64,000 nucleotides of DNA from Acidobacteriota bacterium (lineage in GTDB: Bacteria > Acidobacteriota > UBA890 > WLXD01). Positions 5,357 through 41,228 of the stretch are shown piece by piece (the stretch's first letter is position 1; every line of letters starts with the position of its first letter). The position numbers were made by a program, and so were the translations under genes. The notes below the pieces were generated by a model. That model made no database searches. It saw nothing but the letters and a program-made list of their open reading frames with translations, and was not told the origin of the DNA. The stretch covers positions 480,001-544,000 of the forward strand of contig CBDBHB010000007.1 of NCBI GenBank assembly GCA_965205505.1, in the 5' to 3' direction.

Positions 5357-5368
5357 GTCGATGTTGTT

Positions 5369-19805: not shown

Positions 19806-21555
19806 TCATTGGAGTGCTTCCTTCAGGTGCGCCTTCAAATGGAAGCGCTCCTCGCGTTCTTCGATCAGGACCTGGTGCACCAGGAACCGGAGGGTGTCGC
19901 GCGTCTCTGCGAGGCTGGCGCCGGTCCCGGCCGCAGCCTGGTGGGCGGTTATGCCGGCAGGGTCCGTTGCGCGGTTCAGGACCGCGGCCTGGGCCTCGGT
20001 GAGTTGCACGCCGAGCTTGCCCTTCCACACCTCGTCATAGGCGTTCCGAACCTCTCTCCAGTCCAAGGTGATCGTGAAGCTGTTCCCGTCGCGGTCCGAG
20101 TCGAGGGCTGACGGGCGCCGGCTCGCCTGGCGCCAGGCGTACTGCAGCGCTCGGATGCCACTGCCTGCCAGCTCCGCAAAGCCGATCAGACGAAGCGCCC
20201 GGGCGATGAGGGGACTACGAGCCTGGCTCTTGCCTCCATCGGCTATGTGCTCCTCCGTAACGAGGCTGTACCCGGTATTGAAGAACACAGCTTTGTTCGC
20301 GCTGAGTTCGACCTGTGCAGCCGCGCTCTGATCTGAGTAATCCTGATGAATCAACTGATTGACGAGCGCCTCTCGTATGGCGATGTAGTCGGCACTGCCG
20401 CTCGTCCGGGTCAGATCGTTGACCTCGGCGGCGTCGAGTCCCACGTGCTTGGCGAAGAACTCGATGCCGACGTTCAGCATATCGAGAATGTTCTTGCTGC
20501 CGCTGACGCGTTCATCCCAGCGAGCCCCGGGCTCGGAGATCGCCCGAAAGTCGCTCATCTCTCGGCCGAGCGCTCTTCGCACGGCCTGCTCAGTTCCAAA
20601 CAGCAGCATCAACTGCAGGAGTTCGTCCCGCGACAGTCCGCTAGACCGTCCGTCAAGCAATCCAGCCGTTATGCGTTCCGGCGCAGACGTCGAACTCTCA
20701 CCAGGCAATCTTCGGGCATACCACTCGAGCGTCTCGCTGGAATAGCTGTCCCAAGGCGCCACGCCCTCGGAGTCCTTGCCGGCAGATTCGCGAACTCGTC
20801 GCTCCTCCGCCCAAGACTGCGGCAGGTTGGAACCATCGACCAAGCAGACGTCGTCGAGAGGAAGCAGCTCGCCCGCCAAAATGGCCATCAGTGCGGCGTG
20901 ATCTTCATGCCCTTCCTCAACCACATGTGACTCCTGCGTCTTGAAACGCAGGTGGCCACGTTTCACAGCATCCAGAAACGCCAACCGGTACGCGCACTGT
21001 TGGTGGATCAGGGCGAAGAGGCCTGGGGGCAACAACAGTGCGTGGTCACCGACCGCCACATAGGATAGGGTACGCTGGGTTCCAGCGCGGTCGAGAGTCG
21101 CAGCTGGTCCGGGATTGGGTCGGGACTCTCACCCATCAGGAGCAGCCGCTGCGCGACCAGCGTCTTCTTCTTGTCGATGCTCACGTTCTCGAGCACGAAG
21201 AGGGGTAGCGCCAAGATACGCTCCAGGGCGCCGAGGGCATCCAGAAGGTGCCGCTCCGGGTCCTCCTCCGCGAGGAGGGTCGCCGCCCGGGCTTCTTGCA
21301 TTGTGGCGAGGTCGTGTCCCAGATGGTTGCGCAGCGCCAACAGCGCGACCAACGGACCGTCCGCGGGACCCCGCGAACGCTGGCCGCGTTTCCCGCGCGC
21401 CCGAAATGGCTCGAGGTAGGTTTCGAGAGGATGTTTCTGGATCTTCGCCACTGCCTGAACCGTGCTAAGGAAGGTCCCGAAAGACAGTTCGCCATCCAGC
21501 GGCTGGACCGTCTCGGGAAATGCCGCGTTGCACCGGCCGGCGCGGTAATCGAGGA
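19806..21555 (-). pseudogene. BREX-inserted gene: RxxxxH (HEPN-like) region, HATPase_c_4-like domain and wHTH; 5' truncated, frameshift near 21065
   Basis: [10 protein letters not shown] (21314-21331); AIREALVNQLIHQDY..FFNTG..RSPLIARALRLIGFAELAGSGI; stop overlaps the pglXI ATG. Confidence 0.6.
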
Positions 21556-23976
21556 GAACTGTTCGACGGAGCCGGCAACGAGCTTCTTGCCGGGGATGCT
21601 GAGCACCAGCGATCCGCTGTGGACCAGGGCGGCCAAGACTACCGCCAGGAACTCGGGCTCCAGCCGAAAGCGAGTCCAGTAGTCGATTCCATTGTCGTCT
21701 TGCACCAGTTCTGCACGGTTGAGCACCTGGCCCTTCTTCTTCTTGGCCAGCAGGTCGAGCACATGGGCCGCATAGCGAGACTGCCGCGGCTGGAGTTGGT
21801 CGCCATCGAGCAGATTCAAGGCATCGAGAACGGCCGTGCCCTGCTTGCTCTTGATGCCCCCGGCTATCCATCTAAGGGCTTCGCTCGCTGCTTGCTCCCG
21901 ATTGCGTCGGGTGATCAGCACGCTAAAAGTCGGGTAGTCGGGGCTGTTGTTCTCGAACTGCGGCGCAAGGCAGACTGAGCCGGCGATGTTGACCAGGTCG
22001 CGCACGGACGCGTGGCTCAGGCCGCCGGCCACTTTGCCTTGAATCACCTCCTGCAATGTCTTGGCGCGCCCCTCGTACGTGACTTCGAAAGCGGTCGCCA
22101 TGTGTTCGCGCATCCACTTGGTCAGCTCCCGCAGGTGGTCGGTGGCCTTCTGCTCGTAGATGCGCTTGTTCTCACCCGACGCCGTGGCCGCTTGCTCGCG
22201 CGCCCCGGCGTAGAGCTTGAGGTGGGTGTCAAGGTCATCGTCGCGCTGCTTGAGCTTGAAGAACACTTCGTCGGGCCGCTTCCCGTCCTTGTAGTAAGGC
22301 GCGTCGTGAGGCTGGAGGAAGTAGAGATAGAAGTCCCTCGGAGGCTGCGCTGTGGAACGCTCGTTGGGCGCACCGAAGAAGAGGTAGCCGCTGCGCTCTG
22401 TCTTGCGCTCGCGCCACTCCACCTCGTGCTCCCAGATCTTGTAACCGGACACGTAGGTCTCGTCGGCGGCCTCCATGACCCGCGTAAGCGCGGTGAAGTA
22501 GTGGCGGTCGAGCTGACCGGCGCTCAAGGTGTCGGCCTTCTTGGCGATGATGGAGTCGAAGTCGACGTCCTTCTTCAGGTCCAGGTAGTACTGGTTGTTC
22601 TCCTTGTTCACCGTAATGAACTGCCCGCTCACGGTGCGGAGGATCTCCACCAGCGCTTTCTCTACCAGGGTCGCCAGGAAGGCGGCGTCCTTCTCCGGGG
22701 TGGGCAAGATCAGGCACAGGTCGTCGCGCAGCTCCTCAGGAGTGGCCCCGAGCGGCGCGAAGATGTCACCAGTCGTGAGCCGGTGGACCGAGAGCGCATG
22801 GATGATGCGCAAGGCGACGCCCTTGTACCGAGGCTGGGTGTAGGCCTGCTGGATTCGGTCCTCGAGCACCTTGCTCTTGTCGATGACCTCCTTGATGTCG
22901 GGTACCGAACGGAACGACGGGTTGCTCTGGAGATTGGCCCAATAGCTGTCGTACGAAACGAGCCCCGGCTCGCTGCTAAGGAACGTCGCTGGCGATCACG
23001 CCGCGGATGGCGGCGCTTAGGGTCTTGAGCACTTCGCGTTTTTCCGCCACGTAGACCTTCTCGAAGGTGTCCAGGTAGGCGGGATGCACCGGGAAGAGTT
23101 CGACGAATTTGTCTAACTGCTCGTTCATCGATCCATAGAGCGGCGCGAACTGGGTCAAGTGCTCGCGTATCTTTCCCGCCTGCTCGGGAGTCTTCTTGAG
23201 CAGCCGCTGGGAGACCACGTAAGCGACGTCTTCTCGGGCGATGCGGACCTGGTCGAAGCGGTCTTTGACGCGCCGCAGGGTCTCGGCCACGAACTGAAAG
23301 CGCTGGTTGTCGAAGAGACTCTCCTGCACGCCGGAGATGAAGCGGAAGCGTGTCGACTTGCAGATCTCGCCCACCTCGCGGAGGAAGTTGAGGTCGAGGA
23401 TGAGTTCCTGCTCCTTGCGGGTGCGGAGGTAGTCGAGCAGCTCGTCAAGAACCAGCAGCAGGCCCTGCTTTGGGTGCGCCTCCTCGAAGGCAGCCATCAT
23501 CTCGACGAAGCAGTCTTGTTGTTGGTGACCTCGCTCGCCAGCGGGAACTGGTAGTCCACCCCCATCTCTCCGAGCCTCTCCTCGATGCTCTGGCAGATGA
23601 TGTCCCGCAGGGTCATCGTGGTGGACCCGATCTCGGCGCGTAGAACTTTGAAGCGTCCCGCGATGCTGTCTGCCTTTTTTGCCACCGATTCGTTGGTGGC
23701 TGCGGCCGCCAATTCCGTGTGTTCGGCAATGGCGGAGATCAGCGCCATCAAGTGCGACTTACCAGTGCCGTAATTCCCGACAATCAGCAAGCCCTTGTTG
23801 TCGGCGGGCTTGTCGAACTGAAGCTGTTGGAACACGAGGCCGGTGAGCAGTTCGGCCATGCGGTCGGAAATGACGAAGGTCTCCACTAGGCGCCTGGCGT
23901 CGCTCGCCTCGTCCGCTTCTCGAAGCTGGATGACAGACTCGATGGGCTCGAACTGGATGAGATCTTCGTACTTCAT
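21545..23976 (-). pseudogene. brxC: BREX-3 ATPase BrxC/PglY (DUF6079-like), frameshifted and 3' truncated
   Basis: [37 protein letters not shown]; 1-bp shifts near 23515 and 22978; recognisable sequence stops near 21550. Confidence 0.88.
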
Positions 23977-24485
23977 TCCGACTCCCTATTACCTGTGAGT
24001 GCTTTCGCGCCGGGTACATCCAGGGTGGGCACAATGACTATGCCTGGTTTGTGGTACCGCCTGAACTCGGGGTGAGTCGGGTCGGCGTATGTCAGGCTGT
24101 CGCCCTCGTACACACCCGCCCAGGCAGAGATCACGGTCCGATTGCGGGCGAGCCCCTGCAGCAGCCGAAGCGGATCCTGTTTGAGTTCAGGGCTGAAGAG
24201 CACTTCGATGTTGTCGAGGATCAGTACGTCGCTGCCATGCTCCTTGGCCGCATGGCCGAGAAGGCGCGGTAGTCTGAGTGCACGCTGTCTCGACGTCAGC
24301 TCCAGCATGCGCCCCGAGAGCGAGAGGTTGACGTTGAGCAGTGGCCAGGACCGCTCGTCGGCAAGTTCACGCAGGGACGTCGTCTTGCCCGTGCGCGGGG
24401 GCCCGACGACCAGGATCAAGCGGTGGTAGAGCACGGCAGCCGCAGGAACCTGTTCCGCGATCCGGCGTGATAGTGTCCGTACCAA
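23973..24485 (-). CDS. brxF: BREX-3 P-loop protein BrxF
   Basis: [41 protein letters not shown]; stop overlaps the brxC ATG. Confidence 0.92.
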
Positions 24486-24544
24486 CTACTTTTCCTCGGG
24501 AATTGTCAGAGTTCGAACCAGAAGCCGTATGGTGACGCGATCGA

Positions 24545-27500
24545 TCATGGTGAACCTAGCTCGTGCGCGCTAGCGCCGCTGCGCGCCACAACCTTCTCCA
24601 GATCGACCCAGATCGCCTTGGCCGTGTAGTTCTCGACCTCGTATTCGTCTGGCCGGCAGGTGAATACCAGGATCTGGGACTTGTCAGCGCAGCGATAAAT
24701 CAATTCGGCGAGACGGCTCATGCGGCCGATGTCGCTGTGGACGAGTTGGTCGTCGAGGACGACGGCGGTCTCGAGGGCCTCGGCGATGGTGAGGCGGAGT
24801 AGGGTGGCGAGCTGGTCTCGGGTGCCGATTGACAGTGACGTCTGGTCGCGGGCGGCTCCTGCCAGGGTGAGCCGGGTGCCGTCGAGATGCGGGCCTACTG
24901 AGACGGTGTCGTAGCGGCCCTGGGTGAGAGCGGCGACTCGTTCTTCGATAGGCCTCACGACCGCATCCCCGAGGTGAACGGCGTCCTCGCTCTCGGCAAC
25001 TCTCAGCGTTTCCAGGAGAAGCTGCCATGAGGAGTACTCGATCTCGGTCAGGTGCTCGAGATCGCTGATCGACTCGACGGCTTCCTCCGCTCGATCGAGC
25101 CTGTCCTGGATGTACTGCCCGCCCACCGTCTCCAGGGCGCCCTCGCGTTTACTCCGCTCGCTCTCGAGATCGCGGACGGCGTTGGTGGCTCGCTGCACCA
25201 GCTCGCGCGCGGCCGCGAGTTTCTCGTCGTCGACTTCTACCGTGGGTCGCGGCAGCTTCTCGAGCGTCTCGCGTTGCTCGGCTGCGAGAAGCTCTGCGGC
25301 TGGCAGGTCGTCGGCGTCGGCTCGTGATTTGCGCTCGTCGAGTTGTGCGACGAGCGTTGTGACCGCCGACTGGGCCTTCGATACAGTTTCGGTCTTCTCT
25401 TCGAGGTCCTGCCGCGCCTGGTCGGCCCGAGTCCGGGTGACCTCTTGCCTCTCACGAGCCGCATCGATCGTTGCACTCGCGCTCGTGCCCATCTTCTTCA
25501 GTTCCGCCTCGAGCAAGCCACGGTCCGACGTGATCTTGGCGAGCGTGCCCTCGGTGCCGGCGAGAACGTCCTGAAATGGGCCGCTCAGCCTCCCATCGGC
25601 CGTTTTGCAGTCTCGACGCTGGGCTTGGAGTTCGCGGTTGGCGGAGTCGAGGGTGCTCTCGTCCCGTGTTACCTGTGTTCGCAGTGCACCGGCCTGGTCG
25701 TTTCGCGTCGCGATGCTCTGCTCGAGAGCCTGTCTCTTCTTCTCGGTGGCTTCGGGGTCGCCGGCAGCAGCAGCCTCCTCGAGCACGCGCTCGACGGGGT
25801 CGCCAGCCGCCAGCTTCGCGTCGAGCTGCGCCCGCGCTTCTCGTTCGGACCGCTCTGCCACGGCAAGGCGCGCCTCGGCATCGCCGGCTCCCCGGGCCTG
25901 GGCTTCTGCCTGGTCTGCCTCCGCGTCCAGGGCGGCGACCTTGCCGAGGTCTTTGATCGCTCGCTCGGAGGCCTTCACCAGTTGTCCGAACGACTTGACC
26001 TTGGCAGCGCGAAGCAGGGGAGCCACCGCGTGGTCCCAGCGCTGCCGCATCTCCTGTGCTTCCTGGAGCAGGGCCGCGCTCCCGCCCGTGACCTCTACCT
26101 CGGCGATTCCCGCGAGCTCGACTCGGAGGTGTCCTTCGGCCTCGAACGTCTTCGCGTTCGCCAGATGGTGGTCGTTGGGCTCGGCCGAGTCTGCGGTAAC
26201 AAATACGTCCAGCGGTTTCTTCGGCACGATGCGCAAGGAGAGGCCAACCTGAAGTTTGCCCTCGGCAATCTGCAGCGAATGTAGTTGCTCCCCCAGCTCG
26301 TTCAGTGCTTTCTCGTCGGGGAGAGCCAGTGCTTCGATTCGCGAGCGGATGATCTTGGCTTTCTGTTTTGCGGCCGCCGCCTCGTCGCGGAGCTTGGCAA
26401 CGGACTCGGTGTCCGCGCGCGCCGTGGTCAGGTCCTCGACGGCAGCCGCCAGAGTACCGGCAAGCTCCAGTTGTTCGAGCTTGGCCAAGGCGACCTGGTC
26501 GGCAGTAGTCTGGGTCTCGGCCTGTTGCAGGAGATCACGGGCGTCCTTCAGCTGCTTCTCGCCCGCCGTGACCCCGCTGGCCAGCTCGTCGGCCTTGCGG
26601 TGCGCCACAGCGGCCAGGTTCCCGAGCTCGAGCTCCCGCTCACCGTCCTTCCTGGCCGCGTCGAGAGCGAGCAGCTTCTTCTCGAGCTCCTGCTGCTGGA
26701 TCTTCCGTTTCTGCTCGGCGCTGCCGCTTTCGAGCTCTTCCAGGAGCTTGGCCGCAGCACTGGCTTGCGCCTCGGCAGTGGTGAGCTCGGTCTTGGCTGC
26801 TGTCGCCGCGGCATTGGCATCATCGAGTGCGGCCTGCGCAGTCTTGAGGGCGGCCCCGGTTTCCTCGACAGCCGTGTAGTAGGCGTGCACCCGATCGCGG
26901 GTCTTCTCCGCCTCGGCCAAGAGGTTTGCCGCGGCGGTGAGGGCCTCGTTCTGTCGATAGGCCTCCTGCAGCAGCTGGCTCGCCGCCTCGGCCTCCGCCT
27001 GCTGGATTCTCGCTACTGCGATCTCCTCCGCGATCTCCTCGACTGCCGCACCTACGGAGAGACTGTCGTTCACGAGCTTGCGCGCGGCTTCCTGCTCATC
27101 CCGAGCGAGCTTCAGGCGGTTCTGGATGTCGGTCCAGGGCGAACCCTTGCTCCGCTTCTGCCTTCCCTTGGGGGTATAGGCCTCATCAACCTTCACCTGA
27201 GCGGCCGCGAGCACGCGTCGGAACTCGGGGCTCTCGGCCATGGCCTGCAGCGCCTGCGTGAGCCGTTGCTTGCCCGACTCGTCCGGATCCCCGTCGAGGC
27301 CGCGTTCGAGCACGGCTTCCACTTCGTCTTGGGTGCCGATAAGAGCCGTGGTGAGGAAGGTCTCCGGCCAGCCGTGCTTACCGCCCTGGCCGCCTCCTGG
27401 TTGCTTGATGCCCCACTCCAGGAGCTTGCGTACTTGCCCGTCAACGTCCGCAGCCTTGGCCTCGAGGGCGAAGCTCTCGCCGTCCTTCGAGAACTCCAGG

Positions 27501-27790
27501 AGGCTCGAACCGTCGGCCCCCGAGCCGAAGCTCTTCTTAATGCGGTAGATGCGCTGTGGCTCCGTCTCGAAGGTCAGCTCCACGCGCGGCGGCTGGTCGT
27601 CATGCCAGTCGACGAGGTTGCGATGGGCGGCGCTGCTGACGGGCAACAGCAATGCTGCGCGAATGGCCTGCACGAGCGTCGACTTGCCCAGCTCGTTGGG
27701 GCCGTACAGAACGTTCAGTCCCTGGTCGAGCTTGATGTCGGCGTGCTTGATGCCCGCGAACGAGCGCACCACGAGGCGCCGCAACCACAC
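24545..27790 (-). CDS. Rad50/SbcC/YhaN-like SMC ATPase
   Basis: GPNELGKST, long coiled coil, LSIGTRDQL signature, VVLDDQLVHSD; no CxxC. Confidence 0.9.
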   Translation of the reverse strand: MWLRRLVVRSFAGIKHADIKLDQGLNVLYGPNELGKSTLVQAIRAALLLPVSSAAHRNLVDWHDDQPPRVELTFETEPQRIYRIKKSFGSGADGSSLLEFSKDGESFALEAKAADVDGQVRKLLEWGIKQPGGGQGGKHGWPETFLTTALIGTQDEVEAVLERGLDGDPDESGKQRLTQALQAMAESPEFRRVLAAAQVKVDEAYTPKGRQKRSKGSPWTDIQNRLKLARDEQEAARKLVNDSLSVGAAVEEIAEEIAVARIQQAEAEAASQLLQEAYRQNEALTAAANLLAEAEKTRDRVHAYYTAVEETGAALKTAQAALDDANAAATAAKTELTTAEAQASAAAKLLEELESGSAEQKRKIQQQELEKKLLALDAARKDGERELELGNLAAVAHRKADELASGVTAGEKQLKDARDLLQQAETQTTADQVALAKLEQLELAGTLAAAVEDLTTARADTESVAKLRDEAAAAKQKAKIIRSRIEALALPDEKALNELGEQLHSLQIAEGKLQVGLSLRIVPKKPLDVFVTADSAEPNDHHLANAKTFEAEGHLRVELAGIAEVEVTGGSAALLQEAQEMRQRWDHAVAPLLRAAKVKSFGQLVKASERAIKDLGKVAALDAEADQAEAQARGAGDAEARLAVAERSEREARAQLDAKLAAGDPVERVLEEAAAAGDPEATEKKRQALEQSIATRNDQAGALRTQVTRDESTLDSANRELQAQRRDCKTADGRLSGPFQDVLAGTEGTLAKITSDRGLLEAELKKMGTSASATIDAARERQEVTRTRADQARQDLEEKTETVSKAQSAVTTLVAQLDERKSRADADDLPAAELLAAEQRETLEKLPRPTVEVDDEKLAAARELVQRATNAVRDLESERSKREGALETVGGQYIQDRLDRAEEAVESISDLEHLTEIEYSSWQLLLETLRVAESEDAVHLGDAVVRPIEERVAALTQGRYDTVSVGPHLDGTRLTLAGAARDQTSLSIGTRDQLATLLRLTIAEALETAVVLDDQLVHSDIGRMSRLAELIYRCADKSQILVFTCRPDEYEVENYTAKAIWVDLEKVVARSGASAHELGSP

Positions 27791-27793
27791 TGG

Positions 27794-28947
27794 CTACCGT
27801 CCCCTTCATGAGCTGGAAGAGGTGGTGCAGGGCTCGCTCGGCTCGCTCGGGTTTCCTGGTGGGCAGTTTCGACCAGTCGATCGATGGTCGACTTGAGGAC
27901 GGGGGGAAGGTCGTCGGGGAAGTCCTTCTGCCCGGGGGGCTCCAGGCGCAGTCCGGTTCGGTCCGCGAGCATGACGCCCACTCGGGGATGCGCGGCGAAC
28001 GAGCCTTGCAGCTCGTTGAGGATCGCCCCGGCTTCGTCATACTCGGTAATGGGCAGACGCATCTCAATCTGGATTTTCAGCACGCACTTGCGCAGTGAGT
28101 CATCGGCGCGCAGCGCCCTCAGCTCCTCGATGGAGCGGCAGGTCTGCTCGCGCCACTGCCACTCGCCCACTCGATGTGATTCGACGATGGCCCGGCGACG
28201 CCGATCGCGCGGGAAGAAGGTCAGGGCAACGTGGCCGGCGTCGGTTTCCCCGAACGTGGCCGGCTCGGGCGCGCCCGGATACACAGTGGGAACCGGCGCA
28301 TCGGGTTGGACGTCGCGGAAGCCGTGCGTGTCACCGATGGCGAGGTAATCGAGACCGCGTTGCTGCGCAGCGTCACGCGCGATGGGGAAATTCGTCTGGT
28401 GCCCCTCAATGTCGAAGGTCTGGCCGTGAACGAGGCCGATGCGGATGCGCTCGTCGCCGGGCGCACGGGCTGGAAGCTGCAACGCCGGGTCGTTCTGCCC
28501 GGCGTGAGAGGTGCAAGGCACCGCATAGAGCACGACGTTATCGGCGAGCTCGAGCTCGAAGTCCGGACGATCGACCACGTGCACGAACGGAGGCAGTCCT
28601 CGGCGGAAAGCGTGCCCCGGCTCATAAACAGATCCTGGAACCAGCGGGTCGTGGTTGCCGGGAAGCAGGGCCACCGGACGGGTCCACTTGCGCTTGGCGA
28701 GGTCCTCGACCACGGCCCTCCACCACTGCGAGTCCGGAGCGTACTCGTCGAATAGGTCGCCGGCGCAGAGCACTGCATCCACGCGGCGGCTCTCGGCCAG
28801 GTCGAGGATCCTGGTCACGACCTCGCGTCGAGCACGCGTAAGCTTTTGCTCGTCCTGCTCCGGGAACCTCGGGAAACGACGCCCGAGATGCCAGTCGGCC
28901 GTGTGCAGCAGTGAAAAGGCCACGTCGGGTGCCTCCGGTTTGCTCAT
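27794..28947 (-). CDS. Mre11/SbcD-like metallophosphoesterase nuclease (3' end frameshifted, end approximate)
   Basis: HTADWHLG, AGDLFD, PGNHD, LVHG, GDTH; ATG overlaps the SNF2 stop. Confidence 0.9.
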
Positions 28948-31937
28948 TCGAGAACGAACTCGACGTTGAAGAGCCGCTCGGGCTCGGGCGGCTTGTATCG
29001 ACGGGCGTGGGCGTGATCGCGCCACTTCTCGTATACGGTGTCCGCCCGCGAGTCGACCTTCTCGAGGTCGGCCTCGATGTCCTGCACGCGCTCCTCGTGA
29101 CGCAGAACGCGCTCCTGAGCAGCCTGTCGGGCCTCGGTCCCGAGGGCGCGGTCGCGGGCCATCTCGGCCTGCTCGAGGGCCGCCGCCACGTCGGTTAGCT
29201 CGCGGCGGAGAACAAGGGAGCGGTCGTCCATGAACTGATTGAGCTGGTCGAGGGCGCGCTCGAAGCGATCCTGCTCGCGTCGGGCGGCGTCCGACTGATC
29301 AAGAAACATCTCCTCGTCAACGACCTCGTCGAGGTCGCCCTTCGTCAGTTTGCATGGAGGGTCGTTGTTCGAGAGGTCCTCGCAGGGGAGGCGGAGCAGC
29401 TCGCGGGCGGCCTCGGCAGGGCGGAGCACCTCGGAGTCTTCGAAGATCGCGGTTACCACCAGTCGGTCCTCGCTCTCGTAGCCGGAGTAGGAGACCTTGG
29501 TGAGCGCCAGTCGTCCGCCGGCGCCGCGGCGGGCCTTGAGGACGGGGGAGCTGTCGTCGGCGAGGAGGAAGCGGAGCCGGAAGTCACCGGTACCGCTTTG
29601 TTGCGACTCTCTAACGGCGGCCTTGATCAGCGGGTGCCGACCATGGAGCGACTCAATTTCCTCCAGAGAGCTGGAGTGGCCCAGTGCTACCCGAATACCC
29701 TCGGCGAGGGGGGCGGGGAGCGCTTCTGACTCCGGGACCTCGATGATGCGCTTGCCGTTGTCGGCGTGGAGAGTGTGCTGTGCGCCGATGGCCTCCAGGT
29801 AGGCAGTGGCCACGCGCTCCAGGTCGCTGTCGAGTTCGGCGAGCGTCGCCGGGAGCTCTTCACGAATCTGGCGGAAGACGGCTCGCACCGACTCGTCGAG
29901 ACGGCTCTCGATCAGGCCGACCGTGTGCTCGCGTACGTCTTCGAGCGAACGGCGGCGCTCATCGACGGAGTCTCGCAGTCGACGCAGCTCGACCTCTACC
30001 TCCTGCACCGAGCGAGCGCGATCCCAGATGCGGCGGATCTCGGCCTCGAAGTCCGGGCCGAGACTCATGCCCAGCTCGGCGGTACCGTCATCGCTGCTCT
30101 CGTGCAGAACCTCGTCGGACATGCCAAGGACCGAGCCGAAGAGCTCGAGCTTCTGACTGAGGATGTCGAAGGTGAGCCGTTGAGCCTCGTTGTCCTTCGC
30201 CAGGAAGTTGATGACGGCGACATCACGGGTCTGGCCGTAGCGGTGGCAGCGGCCGATGCGCTGCTCGATGCGCTGAGGGTTCCACGGCAGGTCGTAGTTG
30301 ACGATGGTGTCGCAGAACTGGAGGTTCAGGCCCTTGGCGCCAGCCTCGGTGGAGATGAACACGCGCGAGCGGGTCCTGAACTCGTGCACCAGCGCCAGGC
30401 GCACGGCGATGTTGGGGCTCGGCCGGGAATGAGAGGGGAGGCCGTTTCCGATCTCTTCCTGCCACCTCGCGAGGGCGTCTCGGGCACGTGGGTGGCCGTT
30501 GGCGCCAGAGAAGAGAGTGATCTCGTCTTCGCGCAGGCCGGCCTTCTCCACCAGAAGGTCGCGTAGGTAACTCTGGGTCGTCAGCGACTCGGTGAAGATG
30601 ACCACCTTGTGGCTGCCGCTCTCCCTCTTGCCAATGGTCTCCACGGCAGTCACGAGACTCTGGGCCTTGCTGTCGTGGGGGAGGTCTTGGGCGCGGCGGA
30701 TGAAACCCTCGACCTCTGCGAGTTCGTTGCGAACATCCGCGGACTTGGGGGCGGAGGAGGTCTCCTCGGTCACGGCGGGGCTGGTGTCGTCCTCGTCCTC
30801 GAGGTCGGTGAGGAAGTCGGCGCTCAGCTCGGCGGTGTCGTCCTGTTCCAGGCCGCGTACAAGTTTGCGAAGGCGGTTGGCGACCTGGTGCAGGCTCGCG
30901 GCGAGAGCAGCCGTGGACGAGGCCATGCGGCGATGGAAACCGATCAGGAGGAGCTGCCGCGAGCGGCCGCGGAATGCGTGCAGGGTTGGGCGGAGCAGGT
31001 AGGCGGTAACGTCGTCGTAGAGCGAACGCTCGTCGGGTTCCATCTTGTACTCAAACAGGCGCGCGCTGCGACCGACGAACGGCTTCTCCAGGAACTCCTG
31101 AGCCTGGCGACGCAGGGTTCGATGCACCACTGATGCGAGACGACGTCGCAGGTCGGGCGATTGCTCCGGGACGATCCGGCGTCCCGCGGGATCCTGGCAG
31201 AAGAGCTTCCTGAAGGTGGGGCGAAGGCCCAGCAAGGTGCCCGATCGCTCAACGTACTGCACGAGCCCCCACAGCTCGAGCAGCGAGTTCTGCATGGGGG
31301 TGGCGGTGAGGAGCAGTACTGGCGAGGGCCCTATCAGCGCGCGCACCCTATGCGCGGTTTGCGCCTCCTTGTGCTCCTCCTGGTAGGTGCCGAGGCCATC
31401 GAATCGCCGATGAATCCCCGCGAACAGCTCGTGCGCCTCGTCGATCACGCAGAGATCGAACGGTGGGCCTGAGCCGAGCCTCTCAGAGCCGCGCTGGCCG
31501 CCGGCCCACTCGCGCCCGGCCAGGAAGACCCCAGGCCCATCGGTGTCGGTGCCTGGCTCCGACGCCTCGAACGCCGAGATCCCGAACAGCGTGAACAGCT
31601 CGTCCTGCCATTGGCCAACCAGTGCCCGCGGCAGGATGATCAGAATCCGCTCCGCGCTCTCGGCGAGCAGCTGGGCGATGACCAGCCCAGCCTCGATCGT
31701 CTTGCCGAGGCCAACCTCGTCGGCCAGGACACAACCGCCCTCGGGGATCCGTTGCAGCGCGAACATGACTGCGTCGATCTGGTGCGGGTTCGGGTCGATA
31801 CGGCCCTGCCGCTGAGACGCCGCGTAGCGCCGTGCCTCGCCGGCGCGGCGTCGTCGGACGAGATCTTCCGCGTAGTAGCGCCGATGGATCGGATGGAGGC
31901 CACCCATCAGATTCGTCTGGTTTCGGCGGGAGGCCAC
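28944..31937 (-). CDS. SNF2-family helicase/translocase
   Basis: NPHQIDA, LADEVGLGKT, DEAH, LLTATP, STEAGAKGLNLQ, WNPQRIEQRIGRCHRYGQ; C-terminal coiled coil. Confidence 0.93.
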   Translation of the reverse strand: MASRRNQTNLMGGLHPIHRRYYAEDLVRRRRAGEARRYAASQRQGRIDPNPHQIDAVMFALQRIPEGGCVLADEVGLGKTIEAGLVIAQLLAESAERILIILPRALVGQWQDELFTLFGISAFEASEPGTDTDGPGVFLAGREWAGGQRGSERLGSGPPFDLCVIDEAHELFAGIHRRFDGLGTYQEEHKEAQTAHRVRALIGPSPVLLLTATPMQNSLLELWGLVQYVERSGTLLGLRPTFRKLFCQDPAGRRIVPEQSPDLRRRLASVVHRTLRRQAQEFLEKPFVGRSARLFEYKMEPDERSLYDDVTAYLLRPTLHAFRGRSRQLLLIGFHRRMASSTAALAASLHQVANRLRKLVRGLEQDDTAELSADFLTDLEDEDDTSPAVTEETSSAPKSADVRNELAEVEGFIRRAQDLPHDSKAQSLVTAVETIGKRESGSHKVVIFTESLTTQSYLRDLLVEKAGLREDEITLFSGANGHPRARDALARWQEEIGNGLPSHSRPSPNIAVRLALVHEFRTRSRVFISTEAGAKGLNLQFCDTIVNYDLPWNPQRIEQRIGRCHRYGQTRDVAVINFLAKDNEAQRLTFDILSQKLELFGSVLGMSDEVLHESSDDGTAELGMSLGPDFEAEIRRIWDRARSVQEVEVELRRLRDSVDERRRSLEDVREHTVGLIESRLDESVRAVFRQIREELPATLAELDSDLERVATAYLEAIGAQHTLHADNGKRIIEVPESEALPAPLAEGIRVALGHSSSLEEIESLHGRHPLIKAAVRESQQSGTGDFRLRFLLADDSSPVLKARRGAGGRLALTKVSYSGYESEDRLVVTAIFEDSEVLRPAEAARELLRLPCEDLSNNDPPCKLTKGDLDEVVDEEMFLDQSDAARREQDRFERALDQLNQFMDDRSLVLRRELTDVAAALEQAEMARDRALGTEARQAAQERVLRHEERVQDIEADLEKVDSRADTVYEKWRDHAHARRYKPPEPERLFNVEFVLE

Positions 31938-31944
31938 TGCTGCG

Positions 31945-32659
31945 TCACCCGTTGTTCTCCCGCGCAGGAACGACCAACTCGGTCAGCAGTGGCCGATGGT
32001 CGCTTGCCTCGGACCACTCGTCGAAGCTGGCCACCGACACATCGCTGATCATGTGAGACCAGTTCGCGGGAATGAAGCAGTAATCGATGTGGAAAGGCTG
32101 GTCCAGCTTCCACTGGGTGGTAGTAGGTGGGGCGGGTTTCCTCGCCGTGGCCCTCGCCGTGAAAGACGTGATAGGCGCTGACGAGCCCTAGCTCTTCCAT
32201 CCGACGAACAACTTCAGCGTGATTCAGCCTCGAGTTCGGTAGGTCGAAAGCGCTGCTCGTGTTGAAATCTCCAGCAATCACGGTCGGTGTCTGACGGATC
32301 ATCCCTTCAAAGTGTTCCAGCACCGCGTACATCACCTCAACGTAGGTCGGCTTTGGCAAGGTCCAAACACCAATGAGGTTGAACCGCTCTGGGCCGTCTA
32401 CTCGGGCCGCAATCGTGTGCCCCGGCCCATCATCGAGTCGGGTTAGCTCCCATCCCTGACGCGAGACGATGCCGAGGCCATGGTTGGGTTTGTCACCGGT
32501 CCATAAGACGCGGCCGTCGAGCACCGAGTCCTGAGGTGAAGCGCACTCCGGCAGGACCGCGACATCCGGCTGCAGCGGAGCAAGTTGTTCCCAGGAATCC
32601 TCGATGGCGCCGCGAAAGACGTTCCAAGAGCAGATGCGAATTGTTTGGGTTGCCATCAT
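31945..32659 (-). CDS. Endonuclease/exonuclease/phosphatase (EEP) protein, frameshift near 32115
   Basis: ICSWNV, PDVAVLPE, IAGDFN; the shifted frame gives FHIDYCF..SDHRP and a TGA at 31945. Confidence 0.85.
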
Positions 32660-32982
32660 CAGCGGGAGAGAGACTCCGGATGCCGGGTGTACGGCACGCC
32701 AGCGCTCACAATGGTCGCAGGAGGCCGGACGGAGCGTAGTGTTTCCTCATCTGATGGTGGGCTCAAGGGGAGCAGGCGACCGGTGGAAGCAGATTGAAGC
32801 CTGGTGAGCGGAGGCCGGACTTTGTCGCTGAGCCTGGCCGCGTCATTTCGAGCTCAGCTCGCCTGGCCAGCCCCTACGGGCGCGGGGTCTTGTCGGCCTT
32901 CTTCCAGAAGTCCTTCTTTGGCGCGGTCCGCATCCTCGAGCTCGGGGCGGCAGGCCCCGAGCCCGAGCACGAAAGGACGAAC

Positions 32983-33681
32983 ATGCCGCGGCGCAAGAAG
33001 CCAGAACCGAAGCCCGCTTCACTCTGGGAGCTACCCCAGTTGCTGGCGGTTTACGCCCTGTGCGGCGGATCTGAGCGCCGGCGCTACGTTGCCTACGTCG
33101 GCATTGCGAGAAAACTGAGGCGGCGTATCGGACAGCACCTGATTACAAGAGACAGCGGCGTGGCCGTTGGTACCTCGGCAGTAGGAATCAACGCCGCCGA
33201 CTACGTTACCGAGGTCTGCTGGTGGCAAAGCGGCAGCTTCCGAGGCAAGTACGCACTAGAAGCTGCCGAGATGGTCGCTACGGAGATCTTGCAGCCCGCC
33301 ATCAAAGCACGGTGCGTCAGGCCGAGCCGACACTTCGACGAGCGGCGAGGCCGAGAAGAAATCCATCTGTACTGGCAATGCCTCGATGATGGATCGGCGC
33401 AGCGCGTCGTGTTCCGGCAGAAGCTCAACCATCCCGAGTACATCGGCCTGAATAGCTACTTCTACAAGTGGTTCGCGGTGCTGCTTGGAGTCCCGGAAGC
33501 GGGCGAAGGGATGCCGTTCGTTGATTTCGAAGGGGTCAACGCGAAGATCTCGTTGCGAGCCTCGGGCCGTGGACCGGCAGCCTACACAGTCGTGCCTTCA
33601 CCCCAACCCACTGACCCACCAACCCATACCCAGCTCACTACGAGTCTGACGCGCGTAGACGGGACTGGGGTGGCTGATTGA
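32983..33681 (+). CDS. Protein with GIY-YIG-like N-terminus, possibly chimeric
   Basis: AVYAL..YVGIARKLRRRIGQHL..LEAAE; AAAGGA RBS before ATG 32983. Confidence 0.55.
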   Translation: MPRRKKPEPKPASLWELPQLLAVYALCGGSERRRYVAYVGIARKLRRRIGQHLITRDSGVAVGTSAVGINAADYVTEVCWWQSGSFRGKYALEAAEMVATEILQPAIKARCVRPSRHFDERRGREEIHLYWQCLDDGSAQRVVFRQKLNHPEYIGLNSYFYKWFAVLLGVPEAGEGMPFVDFEGVNAKISLRASGRGPAAYTVVPSPQPTDPPTHTQLTTSLTRVDGTGVAD

Positions 33682-33890
33682 CCTTGACACGCAAGGTGCT
33701 GCCCATCCTCCTGACCGCGGACGAGACGGCCGAAGTCCTCCGCACCTCCCGGGAGGCCATCTACGCTATGGCCGCCCGCGGCCAGCTGCCTGGCGTCGTT
33801 CGGATCGGCCGCCGCATGCTCATCCGGTCCGAAGACCTGCTACGCTCGCTCGATGAAAGCCGTGCGCCATCAGCGCGAAAGGAGCGTTGA
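33678..33890 (+). CDS. Excisionase-like HTH_17 protein
   Basis: [34 protein letters not shown]; overlaps the integrase start. Confidence 0.88.
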
Positions 33891-35011
33891 TGAGCGTAAC
33901 GATCAGACCCTATCGACGTGGCGGCTGGGAGGTCGACATCCGCATTCGGATGCACGACGGAACTGAGATACGGAGGCGATGGAAATCTCCCGTCACCTCG
34001 AAATCCGGTGCCCGGCGCTGGGGGCAGGCGCGTGAGCGGCAGCTACTGGCCAAGGGACCACCGAGACCATCAAAGGAGGTGCCGACACTGGCGCAGTTCG
34101 CTCCCCGGTACATGGATGGCCACGTTCGAGCCAACCGGCTCAAGCCGAGTACTCAGGCCTTTCAGGAGTCGATCCTGCGAGTCCACCTGATTCCGACGCT
34201 TGGGCAGCGCAGGCTCGACGCCATCGGCAACGAAGACGTGCAGCGGCTCAAGCAACGCCTCAGCACCAGGGCCGTCAAGACGGTCAACAACGTGCTGTCG
34301 GTGCTGAGTCAGCTGCTGAAATGCGCTGTGGAGTGGGACGTTATCGACACGATGCCATGCAGGATCAGGCTGCTTACCGTCACACCGACGGAGGCGGCCT
34401 TCCACGACTTCGAGGAGTTCGAGCGACTCGTCGAGGCGTCGGGATATGACTCTCGCGCGCGGGCGATCGTGCTGCTGGGCGGAGAAGCCGGGCTACGGTG
34501 CGGGGAGATGATGGCGCTGGAGTGGAACGACGTCGACTTCAGCGGGGGGCGACTGCAAGTCGTCCGATCCGATTGGAAGGGCCACGTCACCACACCCAAG
34601 AGCGGTCGACCCCGCACCGTACCGATGACGGCCAGGTTGCAGGAGGCGTTGCGGAAGCTGCGCCACCTGCGCGGGCCTCGTGTTGTCTGCGAGCCTGATG
34701 GCAGCCCGCTGACACAGAAAGTCGTGCAGAACCTGGTGCGCGGGGCGGCGCGGCGCGCCAACCTCGCCAACGAGGGTGTGCATGTGCTGCGGCACACGTT
34801 CTGCTCGCATCTGTCGATGCGGGGGGCGCCGGTGAGGGCCATCCAGGAACTCGCCGGGCACTCCAACCTGTCCACCACACAGCGCTACATGCACCTGTCT
34901 CCGGCAGCCCTGAAAGAGGCAATCGGGTTGCTCGAGGAGCCCCAAAAGGCTCCCCGTTTTGGAGACATCCTGGAGACGGCCGTGGAGGTGGCCGCTAACT
35001 CTAATAAATAA
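33887..35011 (+). CDS. Tyrosine integrase
   Basis: [33 protein letters not shown]. Confidence 0.96.
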
Positions 35012-35024
35012 AGCAACTTGTAAG

Positions 35025-35098
<74 letters not shown>

Positions 35099-35339
35099 TG
35101 CGAATACCTCCGGATGCTCGCGGAGAAAGAGCGCAATCGCCAGCCGTTCGGAACACAGATCACAAGACAGCGCGTGGGAAGTCGACAACAGCAGGGGCTC
35201 GTCAGTACCTTACGGACCGAGCATACGAACTCTGGCGACTGCTCCTGGCCGGGTAGGCATCTCCACTAAGCTCGTGCGTGGGGTGCTCTCCACTCCGCAC
35301 GGTTTTCGGAAGAGAGCCAGTCTCGGAGCTCCGCTGCTG

Positions 35340-35560
35340 CTCGGTCCAGCAGTGGAACACCAGCTCCATCTCGCGGATCTGGAACCGGTTGCGCTGGTAA
35401 AAGTTCAGCGCCCTTGGGTTGCGTCCGGCACCCCCACCACCGCGTTGGGGCGGCCGGCCTGCTGGTGGTGGTGCAGCGCCGCCTTCACCAGGGCGGAGCC
35501 GGTGCCGCTGTCGCGCACGCCTACCATCTCCAGCGCGCCGGAGGTGACGCCTGCTGAAAT
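35340..35560 (-). pseudogene. GNAT acetyltransferase remnant
   Basis: Fragments VRDSGTGSALVKAAL and NPRALNFYQR on the minus strand. Confidence 0.4.
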
Positions 35561-35844
35561 CGCTACTCCAGTAGCTTGGCGAAGAAGGTGTCGAAGTCGA
35601 AAGCTACGCCGATGATGCCTCGGATGTCGGACTCGTCAATAAGCTCGACCCGGGTGGCGTAGGTAATCGAGAGGGGTACCTTCAGCCCCGTGCCCGTGAG
35701 TAGGCGGCTTCGCCGTCGATTCGTACCTCGGCCTCGCCGCATCCGCAAACGCCACACGTCGGTCAGACTCACCCGCTCTCGTTGTCGGGCCGCGGCACGC
35801 CTTGCTGCACGGTCGGACGCCCAACCGCACGCCGCTACCAAGAT

Positions 35845-37039: not shown

Positions 37040-37116
37040 GCTCAGTACTCCCTCATTGCGGACACAGTTCAGTAAAGACGCTCGCTCTGTCCAGGAAGCC
37101 CGCAGTTCCACACATG

Positions 37117-37841: not shown

Positions 37842-38226
37842 GGCTGTTCCCGCCCTTCTATTTGCGCCGTTGATCCGGAGGGTATCCCGCCCGTCGCCCC
37901 GGCCCTCGTTGATCGCTGATGACGATCACGTTGCAATCCGGATGGCGCGCCACCGTAGTCGAGGAACGCAACTTGGCTTCAGGAAACGAGGCCTGAGCGT
38001 ATTCGGCCGCGTGGATTCTCGCCAGCAATCGATCGCCCGTGAAGATTTCGCACCACCGGCGTGGGGCTCACAAATGCAGAGGGGCGCCGGGAGGATGGCC
38101 GGTATTATGATGACGACGCCTCGTTGTTGGACGCTCTCAGGAATCCGATGCTCGCTTCTGTCTTTCCGACGGGCCGATGGAGCCTCGCAAGCGGCCGGGA
38201 ATCATTGCCAACCCTGGAGGGGAGTC

Positions 38227-41156: not shown

Positions 41157-41228
41157 TGCTGCGCCCCACCAATAGTGGTACGCCTGCAGAGTGTAGGATC
41201 GATCTCCGTTGAAACAGGGAGCCTGAAG

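What the first reader, a model, noticed from the sequence alone, without database searches (positions are those of the whole stretch)
24545..32659. EEP nuclease - SNF2 helicase - Mre11-like - Rad50-like cassette heading a BREX-3 locus: candidate undescribed defence system
Seen: four co-oriented genes, tightly packed (7-bp gap EEP to SNF2, ATGA overlap SNF2 to nuclease, nuclease abutting the SMC gene), ending 59 bp before brxF inside an integrase-bearing island. The SNF2 and SMC frames are intact while neighbouring BREX genes are broken. Known: SMC ATPase plus nuclease pairs (Wadjet, Lamassu, SbcCD) sense DNA ends or topology. I know no named system that couples a RapA-like SNF2 to an SbcCD/YhaON-type pair. 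Inference: a DNA-end-sensing anti-phage/anti-plasmid machine, stand-alone or providing a nuclease for BREX-3.
Basis: partly seen in the sequence, partly recalled or inferred. Interest (0 to 1): 0.85.

Follow-up and report, generated by a model that had tools for sequence, protein, structure and literature searches.

The report
SNF2 helicase plus SbcCD-like nuclease operon
Three of the four flagged genes (a motor helicase, a DNA-cutting enzyme and a long-armed ATPase) form a strictly conserved, horizontally spread, unnamed operon that probably attacks foreign or broken DNA, while the fourth gene and the neighbouring BREX system are unrelated wreckage.

Summary
The cassette is real, but it has three genes, not four. 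They are a RapA/DrmD-like SNF2 helicase (28944-31907), an Mre11/SbcD-type nuclease (27794-28947) and a Rad50/SbcC-like ATPase without a zinc hook (24545-27790), all on the minus strand.

- **Conservation:** starting from the SNF2, 35 of 36 genome loci with room downstream carry the nuclease. Starting from the nuclease, 64 of 64 metagenome loci have the SNF2 upstream and 60 of 60 the ATPase downstream.
- **EEP gene:** it is a genuine frameshifted pseudogene. It was found in 0 of 160 related loci and 0 of 30 relatives.
- **brxF:** it accompanies the triad in 0 of 160 related loci. BREX-3 here is truly decayed.
- **State of the triad:** it is intact in read-derived contigs and under purifying selection, dN/dS 0.11-0.26.
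- **Known systems:** no PADLOC, NCBIfam or literature match names it.
- **Distribution:** patchy, 7 of 401 genomes in the phylum sample.
- **Context:** mixed. It lies in defence islands in this genus but among housekeeping genes in another.

Best reading: a stand-alone, methylation-independent machine that degrades DNA ends or structures, probably for defence (about 0.5). An accessory repair role is the main rival.

The parts
28944..31907 (-). SNF2-family helicase/translocase, about 987 aa from ATG 31907 (the longest ORF reaches GTG 31937). It has RapA-like architecture without the N-terminal Tudor domains. Its nearest curated family is DISARM DrmD.
   Evidence: Pfam SNF2-rel_dom and Helicase_C. 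PADLOC DrmD PDLC02619 E 1.3e-125. NCBIfam DISARM_DrmD_b 421 bits, under the cut-off of 950. ATPase motifs I, II (DEAH), III and VI are invariant in 27 sequences. AF2 model pLDDT 80.9. Best Foldseek matches are RapA over the whole length, including N-truncated RapA. The start was set from orthologues.
27794..28947 (-). Mre11/SbcD-type metallophosphoesterase nuclease, about 383 aa. Its ATG overlaps the SNF2 stop (ATGA). In the assembly the frame runs on to 27715 because of two extra homopolymer letters; read-derived contigs restore the family's conserved C-terminal helix motif and a TAG stop at 27794-27796.
   Evidence: Metallophos E 1.6e-13. TIGR00619 sbcd 65 bits, under the cut-off of 77.65. 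Zero PADLOC families. Best solved relatives are T. maritima Mre11 and E. coli SbcD. The phosphoesterase motif residues (DxH, GD, GNHD, H, GDxH) are invariant in 30 sequences. Letters are left out in contigs at 27801 and 27852/27854. Orthologue C-terminus.
24545..27790 (-). Rad50/SbcC-like SMC-type ABC ATPase, 1081 aa. It has a split head, long antiparallel coiled coil, a small beta-domain at the apex (about residues 517-568) and no CxxC zinc hook. Its Walker B reads 'DD' instead of 'DE'.
   Evidence: SMC_N E 7.2e-9 (35.8 bits, under the cut-off of 40) and AAA_27 24.6 bits (cut-off 22). Best PADLOC match LmuB E 1.8e-15. Rad50 head is the best solved relative, E 1e-7. Motifs and absence of CxxC in a 23-sequence alignment. 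AF2 model pLDDT 80.7 with head, coiled coil and apex strands. Foldseek hits are SMC-family chains in general.
31945..32659 (-). EEP-like gene. It is listed only because the finding included it; it is a frameshifted pseudogene and not part of the conserved module.
   Evidence: Two frames. Pfam 23.7 bits, under the cut-off of 24.5. The break is reproduced without gaps by contigs of X2, X3 and X4. No homologue in 80 genome loci, 80 metagenome loci or 30 relatives.

Best explanation
The unit is a self-contained three-gene operon: an SNF2 motor, an SbcD-like nuclease and an SbcC-like ATPase. It moves horizontally as one piece.

**Proposed mechanism**
- The ATPase dimer with the nuclease forms an SbcCD/Mre11-Rad50-type clamp. 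The clamp recognises DNA ends, hairpins or protein-blocked ends and cuts them.
- The RapA/DrmD-like SNF2 motor, probably docked by its C-terminal domain, translocates on duplex DNA. It either feeds DNA into the clamp or strips protective proteins from it.
- No methyltransferase travels with the operon. Discrimination would therefore rest on DNA ends or DNA structure, not on modification.
- The most likely use is restriction of incoming phage or plasmid DNA.

**Shown:** gene content, strict co-occurrence and order, intact catalytic motifs, purifying selection, patchy distribution and independence from BREX and EEP.

**Inferred:** that the three proteins form one complex, what the substrate is, and that the role is defence.
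For: **Strict linkage**
- 35 of 36 genome loci with at least 600 nt downstream of a SNF2 of 36% identity or more carry the nuclease.
- 64 of 64 metagenome loci have the SNF2 upstream and 60 of 60 the ATPase downstream.
- Start and stop codons commonly overlap by 4-8 nt.
- One distant locus, L074, keeps the trio in a permuted order.
- No other neighbour is conserved.

**Functional state**
- Catalytic motifs are invariant.
- dN/dS against same-genus orthologues is 0.11-0.12 for the SNF2, 0.18 for the nuclease and 0.26 for the ATPase.
- The triad is intact in read-derived contigs, while the adjacent BREX and EEP breaks are real.

**Accessory and mobile character**
- It was found in 2 of 4 other species of the genus and 0 of 56 further relatives.
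- It was found in 7 of 401 genomes and 3 of 227 genera of the phylum sample.
- Only the triad, at about 90% nucleotide identity, is shared between the three species; the flanks differ.
- The nuclease tree needs 7 changes of phylum label where 3 is the minimum.
- A separate YhaO/YhaN-type pair is conserved in all 8 genomes of the family that I searched, including the window's own, with or without the triad.

**Defence flavour**
- The SNF2's nearest curated family is DISARM DrmD. SNF2 genes about 35% identical sit with a methyltransferase and a DEAD/DEAH-box helicase on plasmids.
- Neighbours in this genus are BREX-3; a BrxA plus BrxB fragment plus a serine recombinase; and a 1747-aa helicase-nuclease of the PDC-S37/Hhe/Mokosh kind. 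That last kind is also next to the triad in L003 and L006.

**Docking**
- Complex prediction paired the SNF2 C-terminal region (residues 640-997) with the G002 orthologue of the nuclease. The verdict was weak support: score 0.57 (runs 0.00, 0.57, 0.77) against a best control of 0.00.
- That mark was reached by 58 of 80 solved complexes and 2 of 110 mismatched pairs. At 0.60 or under, only 7 of those 80 solved complexes and both mismatches reached it.
- The runs agree in at least 0% of their contacts, and the partner pLDDT is at least 66. My own alignments were used, so these counts hold only roughly.
Against: - There is no experimental evidence for any function.
- Context is mixed. Among 137 flanking proteins of 29 loci, the Pfam tally is largely housekeeping (dehydrogenases, transporters and the like). 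No defence family recurs in more than 3 of them.
- In genus g132 the triad lies in conserved synteny in 3 of 3 species. Its neighbours there are FG-GAP/ASPIC, TPR, a Glu/Gln-tRNA synthetase and a histidine kinase.
- No close copy was found on 72,556 plasmids, 50,697 phage records or the viral contig collection.
- The complex prediction is weak; one of the three runs scored 0.00.
- The ATPase has an unusual Walker B (DD) and no zinc hook, so its behaviour may differ from SbcC.
Confidence: 0.5

Rival explanations
1. The triad is an accessory DNA-repair or recombination module. In this reading an SbcCD/Mre11-Rad50-type end processor uses a dedicated SNF2 remodeller to clear proteins and help resection at breaks, hairpins or stalled forks in the host chromosome. 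I recall that Fun30/SMARCAD1 assists MRX/MRN in this way in eukaryotes.
For: - Public sources name the nuclease 'DNA repair exonuclease SbcCD nuclease subunit' or 'hypothetical protein'.
- The best solved relatives are Mre11/SbcD and Rad50.
- The triad sits in stable synteny among housekeeping genes in 3 of 3 species of genus g132.
- Many flanks are housekeeping genes, and one flanking protein is Ku.
- No methyltransferase or other self-marking partner is conserved with it.
- All three genes are under purifying selection.
Against: - Distribution is very patchy: 7 of 401 genomes.
- A conserved housekeeping-type pair is present in all 8 genomes of the family that I searched, with or without the triad.
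- G205 also holds a canonical SbcD that scores over the family cut-off.
- The tree shows transfers between phyla.
- Neighbours in this genus, and in L003, L006 and L001, are defence or mobile-element genes.
- The SNF2 is closest to a defence helicase family.
- In g132 the triad is more diverged than its flanks: 75-81% against 82-95% nucleotide identity.
Confidence: 0.3
2. The triad is cargo of mobile elements and serves the element itself. Possible roles are competition with rival elements, processing of the element's own DNA ends, or anti-defence, rather than host immunity or host repair.
For: - In G002 a large serine recombinase follows the triad directly, and resolvase and IS fragments flank it.
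- A tyrosine integrase lies 1.2 kb upstream of the EEP remnant in the window.
- Two integrases and one TrwB coupling protein are among the 137 flanking proteins.
- Window 1-12000 has almost no counterpart in four same-genus genomes.
Against: - No recombinase or transfer gene is conserved next to the triad.
- No close copy was found on plasmid, phage or viral-contig collections.
- The triad is stably chromosomal and syntenic in genus g132.
Confidence: 0.1
3. This is the first reader's alternative: the cassette is an accessory of BREX-3 and supplies its nuclease.
For: - The triad is adjacent to and co-oriented with brxF in the window, across a 59-bp gap.
- In G002 the homology runs through that spacer into the first 76 nt of brxF.
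- BrxA and a BrxB fragment lie upstream of the triad in G002.
Against: - BrxF was found in 0 of 80 genome loci and 0 of 80 metagenome loci that hold the SNF2 or the triad.
- BREX-3 already has its own SNF2, brxHII.
- Here BREX-3 has at least five frame breaks and an IS3-type insertion, all reproduced by read-derived contigs, while the triad is intact and constrained.
- The BREX survey PMC12839542 has no passage on such a partner (passages seen through term searches only; supplements not seen).
Confidence: 0.03

Closest known systems
SbcCD / Mre11-Rad50 (E. coli SbcCD, T. maritima Mre11-Rad50)
   Same: - The nuclease gene directly precedes the coiled-coil ABC ATPase gene.
- All Mre11 phosphoesterase motifs are invariant.
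- The Rad50-type head carries Walker A, the signature motif and the D-loop.
- These are the best solved relatives by sequence.
- The nuclease ends in a conserved C-terminal helix motif. By position it could be the ATPase-binding element (inference).
   Different: - There is no CxxC zinc hook; a small beta-domain sits at the coiled-coil apex.
- Walker B reads DD, not DE.
- Scores are far under the curated cut-offs.
- An SNF2 partner gene is always present.
- Distribution is patchy and shaped by transfer, and the triad coexists with a housekeeping pair.
DISARM class 1 helicase DrmD
   Same: - It is the nearest curated family of the SNF2: PADLOC PDLC02619 E 1.3e-125 and NCBIfam DISARM_DrmD_b 421 bits.
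- Plasmid relatives about 35% identical sit with a methyltransferase and a DEAD/DEAH-box helicase.
   Different: - The score is under the cut-off of 950.
- No methyltransferase, DrmA/B or PLD gene is conserved next to the triad.
- The partners are an SbcCD-like pair instead.
RapA (RNA-polymerase-associated SNF2) and BREX-3 BrxHII
   Same: - RapA is the best whole-length structural match, including N-truncated RapA (8spg, 8so8, 8t0l).
- RapA is also the best solved relative by sequence.
- PMC12839542 describes BrxHII as RapA-like (passages seen).
   Different: - The triad's SNF2 lacks the N-terminal Tudor domain or domains; the protein starts about 45 residues before the Q motif.
- Identity to RapA is 16-17%.
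- The window's own brxHII is a different, broken gene at 12965-15746.
Lamassu (LmuA/B/C)
   Same: - It is an SMC-like ATPase of SbcC ancestry used for immunity. LmuB is the best PADLOC match of the ATPase, E 1.8e-15.
- PMC12663957 argues that Lamassu derives from SbcCD and senses DNA ends (passages seen).
   Different: - The triad keeps a full Mre11-type nuclease and long coiled coils of about 1080 aa.
- It has no LmuA effector and no separate LmuC.
- It adds an SNF2 motor.
B. subtilis YhaO/YhaN (SbcEF)-type pair, PF13514 AAA_27
   Same: - It is also a metallophosphoesterase plus a coiled-coil ATPase.
- The triad's ATPase passes the AAA_27 cut-off narrowly, 24.6 against 22 bits.
   Different: - The genome's real pair of this type lies elsewhere, on contig C6 (455 aa plus 873 aa, AAA_27 E 8e-15).
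- That pair is conserved across the family.
- It is only 32% identical to the triad's nuclease and has no SNF2 partner.

Membership tests
SbcCD / Mre11-Rad50 | Mre11-type phosphoesterase with its catalytic motifs | tested here: met
   The motif residues are invariant in 30 sequences. The best solved relatives are Mre11/SbcD. The curated SbcD cut-off is not reached: 65.4 against 77.65 bits.
SbcCD / Mre11-Rad50 | CxxC zinc hook at the coiled-coil apex of the ATPase | tested here: not met
   No conserved CxxC appears in the 23-sequence alignment. The model shows six short strands at residues 517-568 at the apex.
SbcCD / Mre11-Rad50 | ABC ATPase head with Walker A, signature motif, Walker B and D-loop | tested here: inconclusive
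   Walker A, the signature motif and the D-loop are conserved. Walker B is invariably DD rather than DE, and the H-loop position reads C followed by R or H. Curated Rad50 models score 18-31 bits against cut-offs of 700-1087.
DISARM class 1 | The helicase scores as DrmD, and DrmA/DrmB/DrmC plus a methyltransferase lie in the locus | tested here: not met
   NF038318 scores 421 bits against a cut-off of 950. No neighbour other than the nuclease and the ATPase is conserved in 42 loci. The neighbours were not scanned one by one for DrmA/B/C.
BREX type 3 (as an accessory component) | Co-occurrence with brxF and the other BREX-3 genes | tested here: not met
   BrxF was found in 0 of 80 genome loci and 0 of 80 metagenome loci. 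Adjacency was seen only in this genus.
Lamassu | LmuB with an LmuA effector and LmuC, and short or long LmuB architecture | tested here: not met
   There is only a partial LmuB profile match, E 1.8e-15. The partners are an Mre11-type nuclease and an SNF2. No LmuA or LmuC match is among the PADLOC results for the four genes.
Any named system in PADLOC-DB v2.0.0 or NCBIfam 20.0 | All components match the models of one system | tested here: not met
   The nuclease matches 0 PADLOC families at E 0.01. No NCBIfam anti-phage model comes near its cut-off. DefenseFinder itself was not available.
Defence system in general | Enrichment in defence islands and a protective phenotype | tested here: inconclusive
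   Defence neighbours occur in the three species of this genus and in L001, L003 and L006. Housekeeping neighbours occur elsewhere. No background-corrected score was computed. The phenotype cannot be tested with these tools.

The most novel reading that the evidence does not exclude
The triad is a new, widespread, stand-alone bacterial immune system. A RapA/DrmD-like SNF2 motor is coupled to a hook-less SbcCD-like clamp-nuclease, and the machine destroys invading DNA by its ends or structure without any methylation mark. It would be a living intermediate between SbcCD repair and Lamassu-type immunity. It would also be a prokaryotic counterpart of remodeller-assisted Mre11-Rad50 action.
Probability: 0.4. 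Interest if true: 0.8.

Novelty: new variant of a known kind. Interest (0 to 1): 0.62.

Why it matters
- **An unnoticed partner for a well-studied machine.** Bacterial Mre11-Rad50/SbcCD complexes are not known to have a dedicated motor partner. Here one is hard-wired into an operon. The nuclease has at least 1919 clusters (90% identity) in public data and 853 representatives at E 1e-30 or better. Sources call it only 'DNA repair exonuclease' or 'hypothetical'.
- **If it defends cells,** it adds a methylation-independent system. It would also give a concrete intermediate for the proposed route from SbcCD to Lamassu (PMC12663957, passages seen).
- **If it repairs DNA,** it shows remodeller-assisted end processing in bacteria.
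- **Either way it is testable.** The unit is compact at about 7.4 kb, with clear catalytic residues to mutate.

Tried and rejected
- **EEP as a fourth member: rejected.** It was found in 0 of 160 related loci and 0 of 30 relatives, and it is frameshifted in both the assembly and the contigs.
- **BREX-3 accessory: rejected.** See the rival explanations.
- **'All frameshifts are assembly errors': rejected.** Only the two in the nuclease tail differ in the contigs. The BREX and EEP breaks are reproduced with 0 gaps.
- **Named-system match: none.** PADLOC and NCBIfam gave no match.
- **Literature.**
  - Searches found no paper that couples an SNF2 to an SbcCD-like pair.
  - In PMC12839542, PMC10853773, PMC12663957 and 10.64898/2026.07.06.735840 I saw only passages found by term. 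I saw no supplements.
  - Krishnan et al. 2020 on ABC ATPases (PMC7544218) is not held. It and its supplements may already describe this neighbourhood, and I could not check.
- **Plasmids, phages and viral contigs.** No close nuclease homologue was found.
- **Island borders.** There is no tRNA in the window. Synteny with four same-genus genomes is scrambled, so no borders were defined.
- **Promoter and terminator scan.** It gave nothing above the shuffles.
- **Foldseek on the ATPase model.** It returned generic SMC-family matches that do not discriminate between subfamilies.
- **First ATPase count.** My first filter found 44 of 60. It only accepted matches that began within 1.5 kb of the nuclease. 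With a 4-kb span and E 1e-3 the count is 60 of 60.
- **L037.** It holds only a C-terminal SNF2 fragment with no nuclease or ATPase. This is the one exception.
- **Greedy ORF calling.** In high-GC DNA it picked some antisense ORFs (clusters 2 and 3), and I ignored those.
- **Parts of the stretch with thin contig cover.** I draw no conclusion from them.

Full report
**What is at the coordinates**

Four minus-strand ORFs fill 24545-32659.

| Gene | Pfam | PADLOC | NCBIfam |
|---|---|---|---|
| EEP-like | 23.7 bits, cut-off 24.5 | 0 families | 0 families |
| SNF2 helicase | SNF2-rel_dom E 6.7e-21; Helicase_C E 3.9e-15 | DrmD PDLC02619 E 1.3e-125 | DISARM_DrmD_b 421 bits, cut-off 950 |
| Nuclease | Metallophos E 1.6e-13 | 0 families | SbcD TIGR00619 65.4 bits, cut-off 77.65 |
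| ATPase | SMC_N 35.8 bits, cut-off 40; AAA_27 24.6 bits, cut-off 22 | LmuB E 1.8e-15 at best | Rad50-type models far under cut-off |

By sequence, the best solved relatives are RapA for the helicase, Mre11/SbcD for the nuclease and the Rad50 head for the ATPase.

Downstream lies a BREX type 3 locus:
- brxF scores 179 bits against a cut-off of 50.
- brxC is in three pieces.
- pglXI is in four pieces.
- brxHII is in two pieces.
- pglZ and brxA are whole.

A tyrosine integrase lies upstream at 33887-35011.

**Junctions**
- The EEP gene is split between two frames.
- The SNF2 most likely starts at ATG 31907, not GTG 31937. The protein of the same-genus orthologue begins there, and DNA homology with the orthologues begins at 31910-31917.

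**Real breaks and assembly errors**

The family alignment shows a conserved C-terminal helix motif in the nuclease. In the window this motif lies in another frame.

I laid Logan contigs of four coded runs on 12700-32699.
- Contigs otherwise identical to the window lack one letter at 27801 (X1, X2, X3) and one at 27852 or 27854 (X2; X1 and X3).
- With those two letters removed, the gene ends at TAG 27794-27796, 3 nt before the ATPase start. Orthologues G002 and G004 end the same way.
- Everywhere else the contigs of X2, X3 and X4 match with 0 gaps, over 12700-17921, 19178-26526 and 28420-32699. The BREX breaks and the EEP break are therefore real in that population.
- The ORF at 18060-19298 inside pglXI is an IS3-type transposase (rve, HTH_21). 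It coincides with a depth peak.

At least five frame breaks and one IS insertion lie in about 14.4 kb of BREX, against none in the 7.4 kb of the triad. My rough Poisson estimate is P of about 0.05.

**The conserved unit is a triad**

A scan of one genome per species with the SNF2 gave 587 relatives among 595 stretches, of which the best 80 loci were kept. I then ran tblastn with the window's proteins.
- Of the 42 loci where the SNF2 is 36-65% identical, 36 have at least 600 nt downstream.
- 35 of those 36 carry the nuclease. All of those with further room carry the ATPase.
- The exception, L037, holds only a C-terminal SNF2 fragment.
- Of the 38 loci where the SNF2 is about 30% identical, only L074 has the pair, and there the order is nuclease, ATPase, SNF2.
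- Gene sizes are constant at about 990, 385 and 1080 aa, and 4-8 nt overlaps are common.
- Clustering all neighbours found no other conserved gene.

From the nuclease side, a metagenome scan kept 80 loci.
- The SNF2 lies directly upstream in 64 of 64 loci with room.
- The ATPase lies downstream in 60 of 60 loci with room. A stricter first filter had given 44 of 60.
- EEP and BrxF were found in none of the 160 loci.
- EEP was also found in 0 of 30 relatives.

**Anatomy**

*SNF2*
- Motifs I, II (DEAH), III and VI are invariant in 27 sequences.
- The AF2 model has pLDDT 80.9, and the C-terminal 300 residues are near 90. After the motor come a helical hairpin, an alpha/beta domain and a long C-terminal coiled coil.
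- Foldseek aligns the whole length to RapA, best to N-truncated RapA. The protein is therefore RapA-like without the Tudor domains.

*Nuclease*
- All Mre11 phosphoesterase motif residues are invariant.

*ATPase*
- Walker A, the signature motif and the D-loop are conserved.
- Walker B is invariably DD.
- There is no CxxC.
- The model has pLDDT 80.7. It shows a split head, helices of about 270 residues on each arm and a six-strand apex domain at 517-568.

**Selection and spread**
- Against the same-genus orthologues, dN/dS is 0.11-0.12 for the SNF2, 0.18 for the nuclease and 0.26 for the ATPase. Within the ATPase the heads give 0.02-0.25 and the coiled coil 0.3-0.46.
- The triad is in 2 of 4 other species of the genus and 0 of 56 further relatives.
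- It is in 7 of 401 genomes and 3 of 227 genera of a phylum-wide sample, G000 included.
- Between the three species of the genus only the triad is shared, at about 90% nucleotide identity. In G002 the homology also covers the spacer and the first 76 nt of brxF.
- The nuclease tree needs 7 changes of phylum label among 24 labelled rows, where 3 is the minimum. The labels are still more clustered than in shuffles (0 of 200 shuffles were as low). The window's clade sits with Gammaproteobacteria and Acidobacteriota rows in a branch with 99% support.
- The family is large:
  - 853 representatives at E 1e-30 or better.
  - 1919 clusters at E 1e-40 or better among the 8000 candidates scored.
  - Where a name is given, it is 'DNA repair exonuclease' or 'hypothetical'.

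**Context**

*For a defence role*
- In G004 a 1747-aa helicase with REase_MTES_1575 precedes the triad. It matches PDC-S37, Hhe and Mokosh models.
- The same kind of gene lies beside the triad in L003 and L006.
- L001 has a GmrSD/HEC-05 gene.
- In G002 the triad sits between a resolvase fragment, BrxA and a BrxB fragment on one side and a large serine recombinase on the other.
- SNF2 relatives about 35% identical sit on plasmids with a methyltransferase and a DEAD/DEAH-box helicase, as in class 1 DISARM.
- The genome has a separate YhaO/YhaN-type pair on contig C6. That pair is conserved in all 8 genomes of the family that I searched, whether or not they hold the triad.

*Against a defence role*
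- The tally of 137 flanking proteins is mostly housekeeping, and no defence family recurs more than three times.
- In genus g132 the triad is syntenic in 3 of 3 species among FG-GAP/ASPIC, TPR, tRNA-synthetase and histidine-kinase genes. There it is more diverged than its flanks: 75-81% against 82-95% nucleotide identity.
- No close copy is on the plasmid, phage or viral-contig collections.

**Complex**

I paired the SNF2 C-terminal region (640-997) with the G002 nuclease.
- The verdict was weak support: 0.57 (runs 0.00, 0.57, 0.77) against a best control of 0.00.
- That mark was reached by 58 of 80 solved complexes and 2 of 110 mismatches. At 0.60 or under, only 7 of those 80 and both mismatches reached it.
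- The runs agree in at least 0% of contacts, and the partner pLDDT is at least 66. My own alignments were used.

I treat this as a hint only.

**Comparison with known systems**

The triad works like SbcCD/Mre11-Rad50 with an added motor, but it fails the zinc-hook test and the curated cut-offs. Its SNF2 is DrmD-like but under the cut-off and without DISARM partners. It is neither Lamassu nor a BREX component.

I found no paper describing it.

**Verdict**

| Reading | Odds |
|---|---|
| Stand-alone machine that degrades DNA ends or structures, for defence | about 0.5 |
| Accessory DNA repair | about 0.3 |
| Function of a mobile element | about 0.1 |
| BREX accessory | about 0.03 |

It is a new variant of a known kind and worth a bench test.

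Noticed in passing
window 27801 and 27852-27854: The assembly carries two extra homopolymer letters that read-derived contigs of X1-X3 lack. They break the frame of the nuclease C-terminus in the assembly only.
   Followed up: yes
window 18060-19298 (-): An IS3-type transposase (rve, HTH_21) is inserted inside pglXI. Contig depth there is 128-311, against roughly 5-20 nearby, so the element is repeated in these samples.
   Followed up: partly
window 10058-24485 (-): The BREX type 3 locus is decayed. brxC is in three pieces and its last third or so was not detected. pglXI is in four pieces, and brxHII is in two. brxF, pglZ and brxA are whole. The breaks are reproduced by independent contigs.
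   Followed up: yes
window 19806-21059 (-): A 417-aa ORF with a HATPase_c_4 domain lies between the brxC and pglXI remnants. Its role was not examined.
   Followed up: no
L091 (G002:C17) 1513-14286: In a sister species the triad is flanked by a resolvase fragment, BrxA and a BrxB fragment upstream. Downstream lie a large serine recombinase and an IS fragment. The first 76 nt of brxF survive after the ATPase gene, so the triad-brxF junction predates the split of the two species.
   Followed up: partly
L089 7233-12476; L003 4596-9758; L006 4353-8963: A giant (1536-1747 aa) SF1 helicase with a REase_MTES_1575 nuclease lies next to the triad in three unrelated genomes. The L089 copy matches PDC-S37, Hhe and Mokosh models (only that copy was run against PADLOC). 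These may travel together as an island.
   Followed up: partly
L074 5239-12883; L013 12958-15676: A distant Chloroflexi variant has the order nuclease, ATPase, SNF2. In L013 about 2.7 kb is inserted between the SNF2 and the nuclease.
   Followed up: no
G000 contig C6, L092 3350-7341 (-): A second, housekeeping-type pair (Metallophos 455 aa plus AAA_27/YhaN-like 873 aa) is conserved at 57-94% identity in the seven other genomes of the family searched (G001-G005, G007).
   Followed up: yes
window 1-12000 and 33000-47000: Window 1-12000 has almost no DNA counterpart in four same-genus genomes. Pieces of 33000-47000 map to scattered places, and short repeats occur many times. The whole region is highly plastic.
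   Followed up: partly
L188-L190 (genus g132): Where the triad is syntenic in three species, it is more diverged (75-81% nucleotide identity) than the housekeeping flanks (82-95%).
   Followed up: partly
protein P0019: A 1338-aa representative begins with the nuclease domain (profile positions 9-280). It may be a nuclease-ATPase fusion or a read-through.
   Followed up: no
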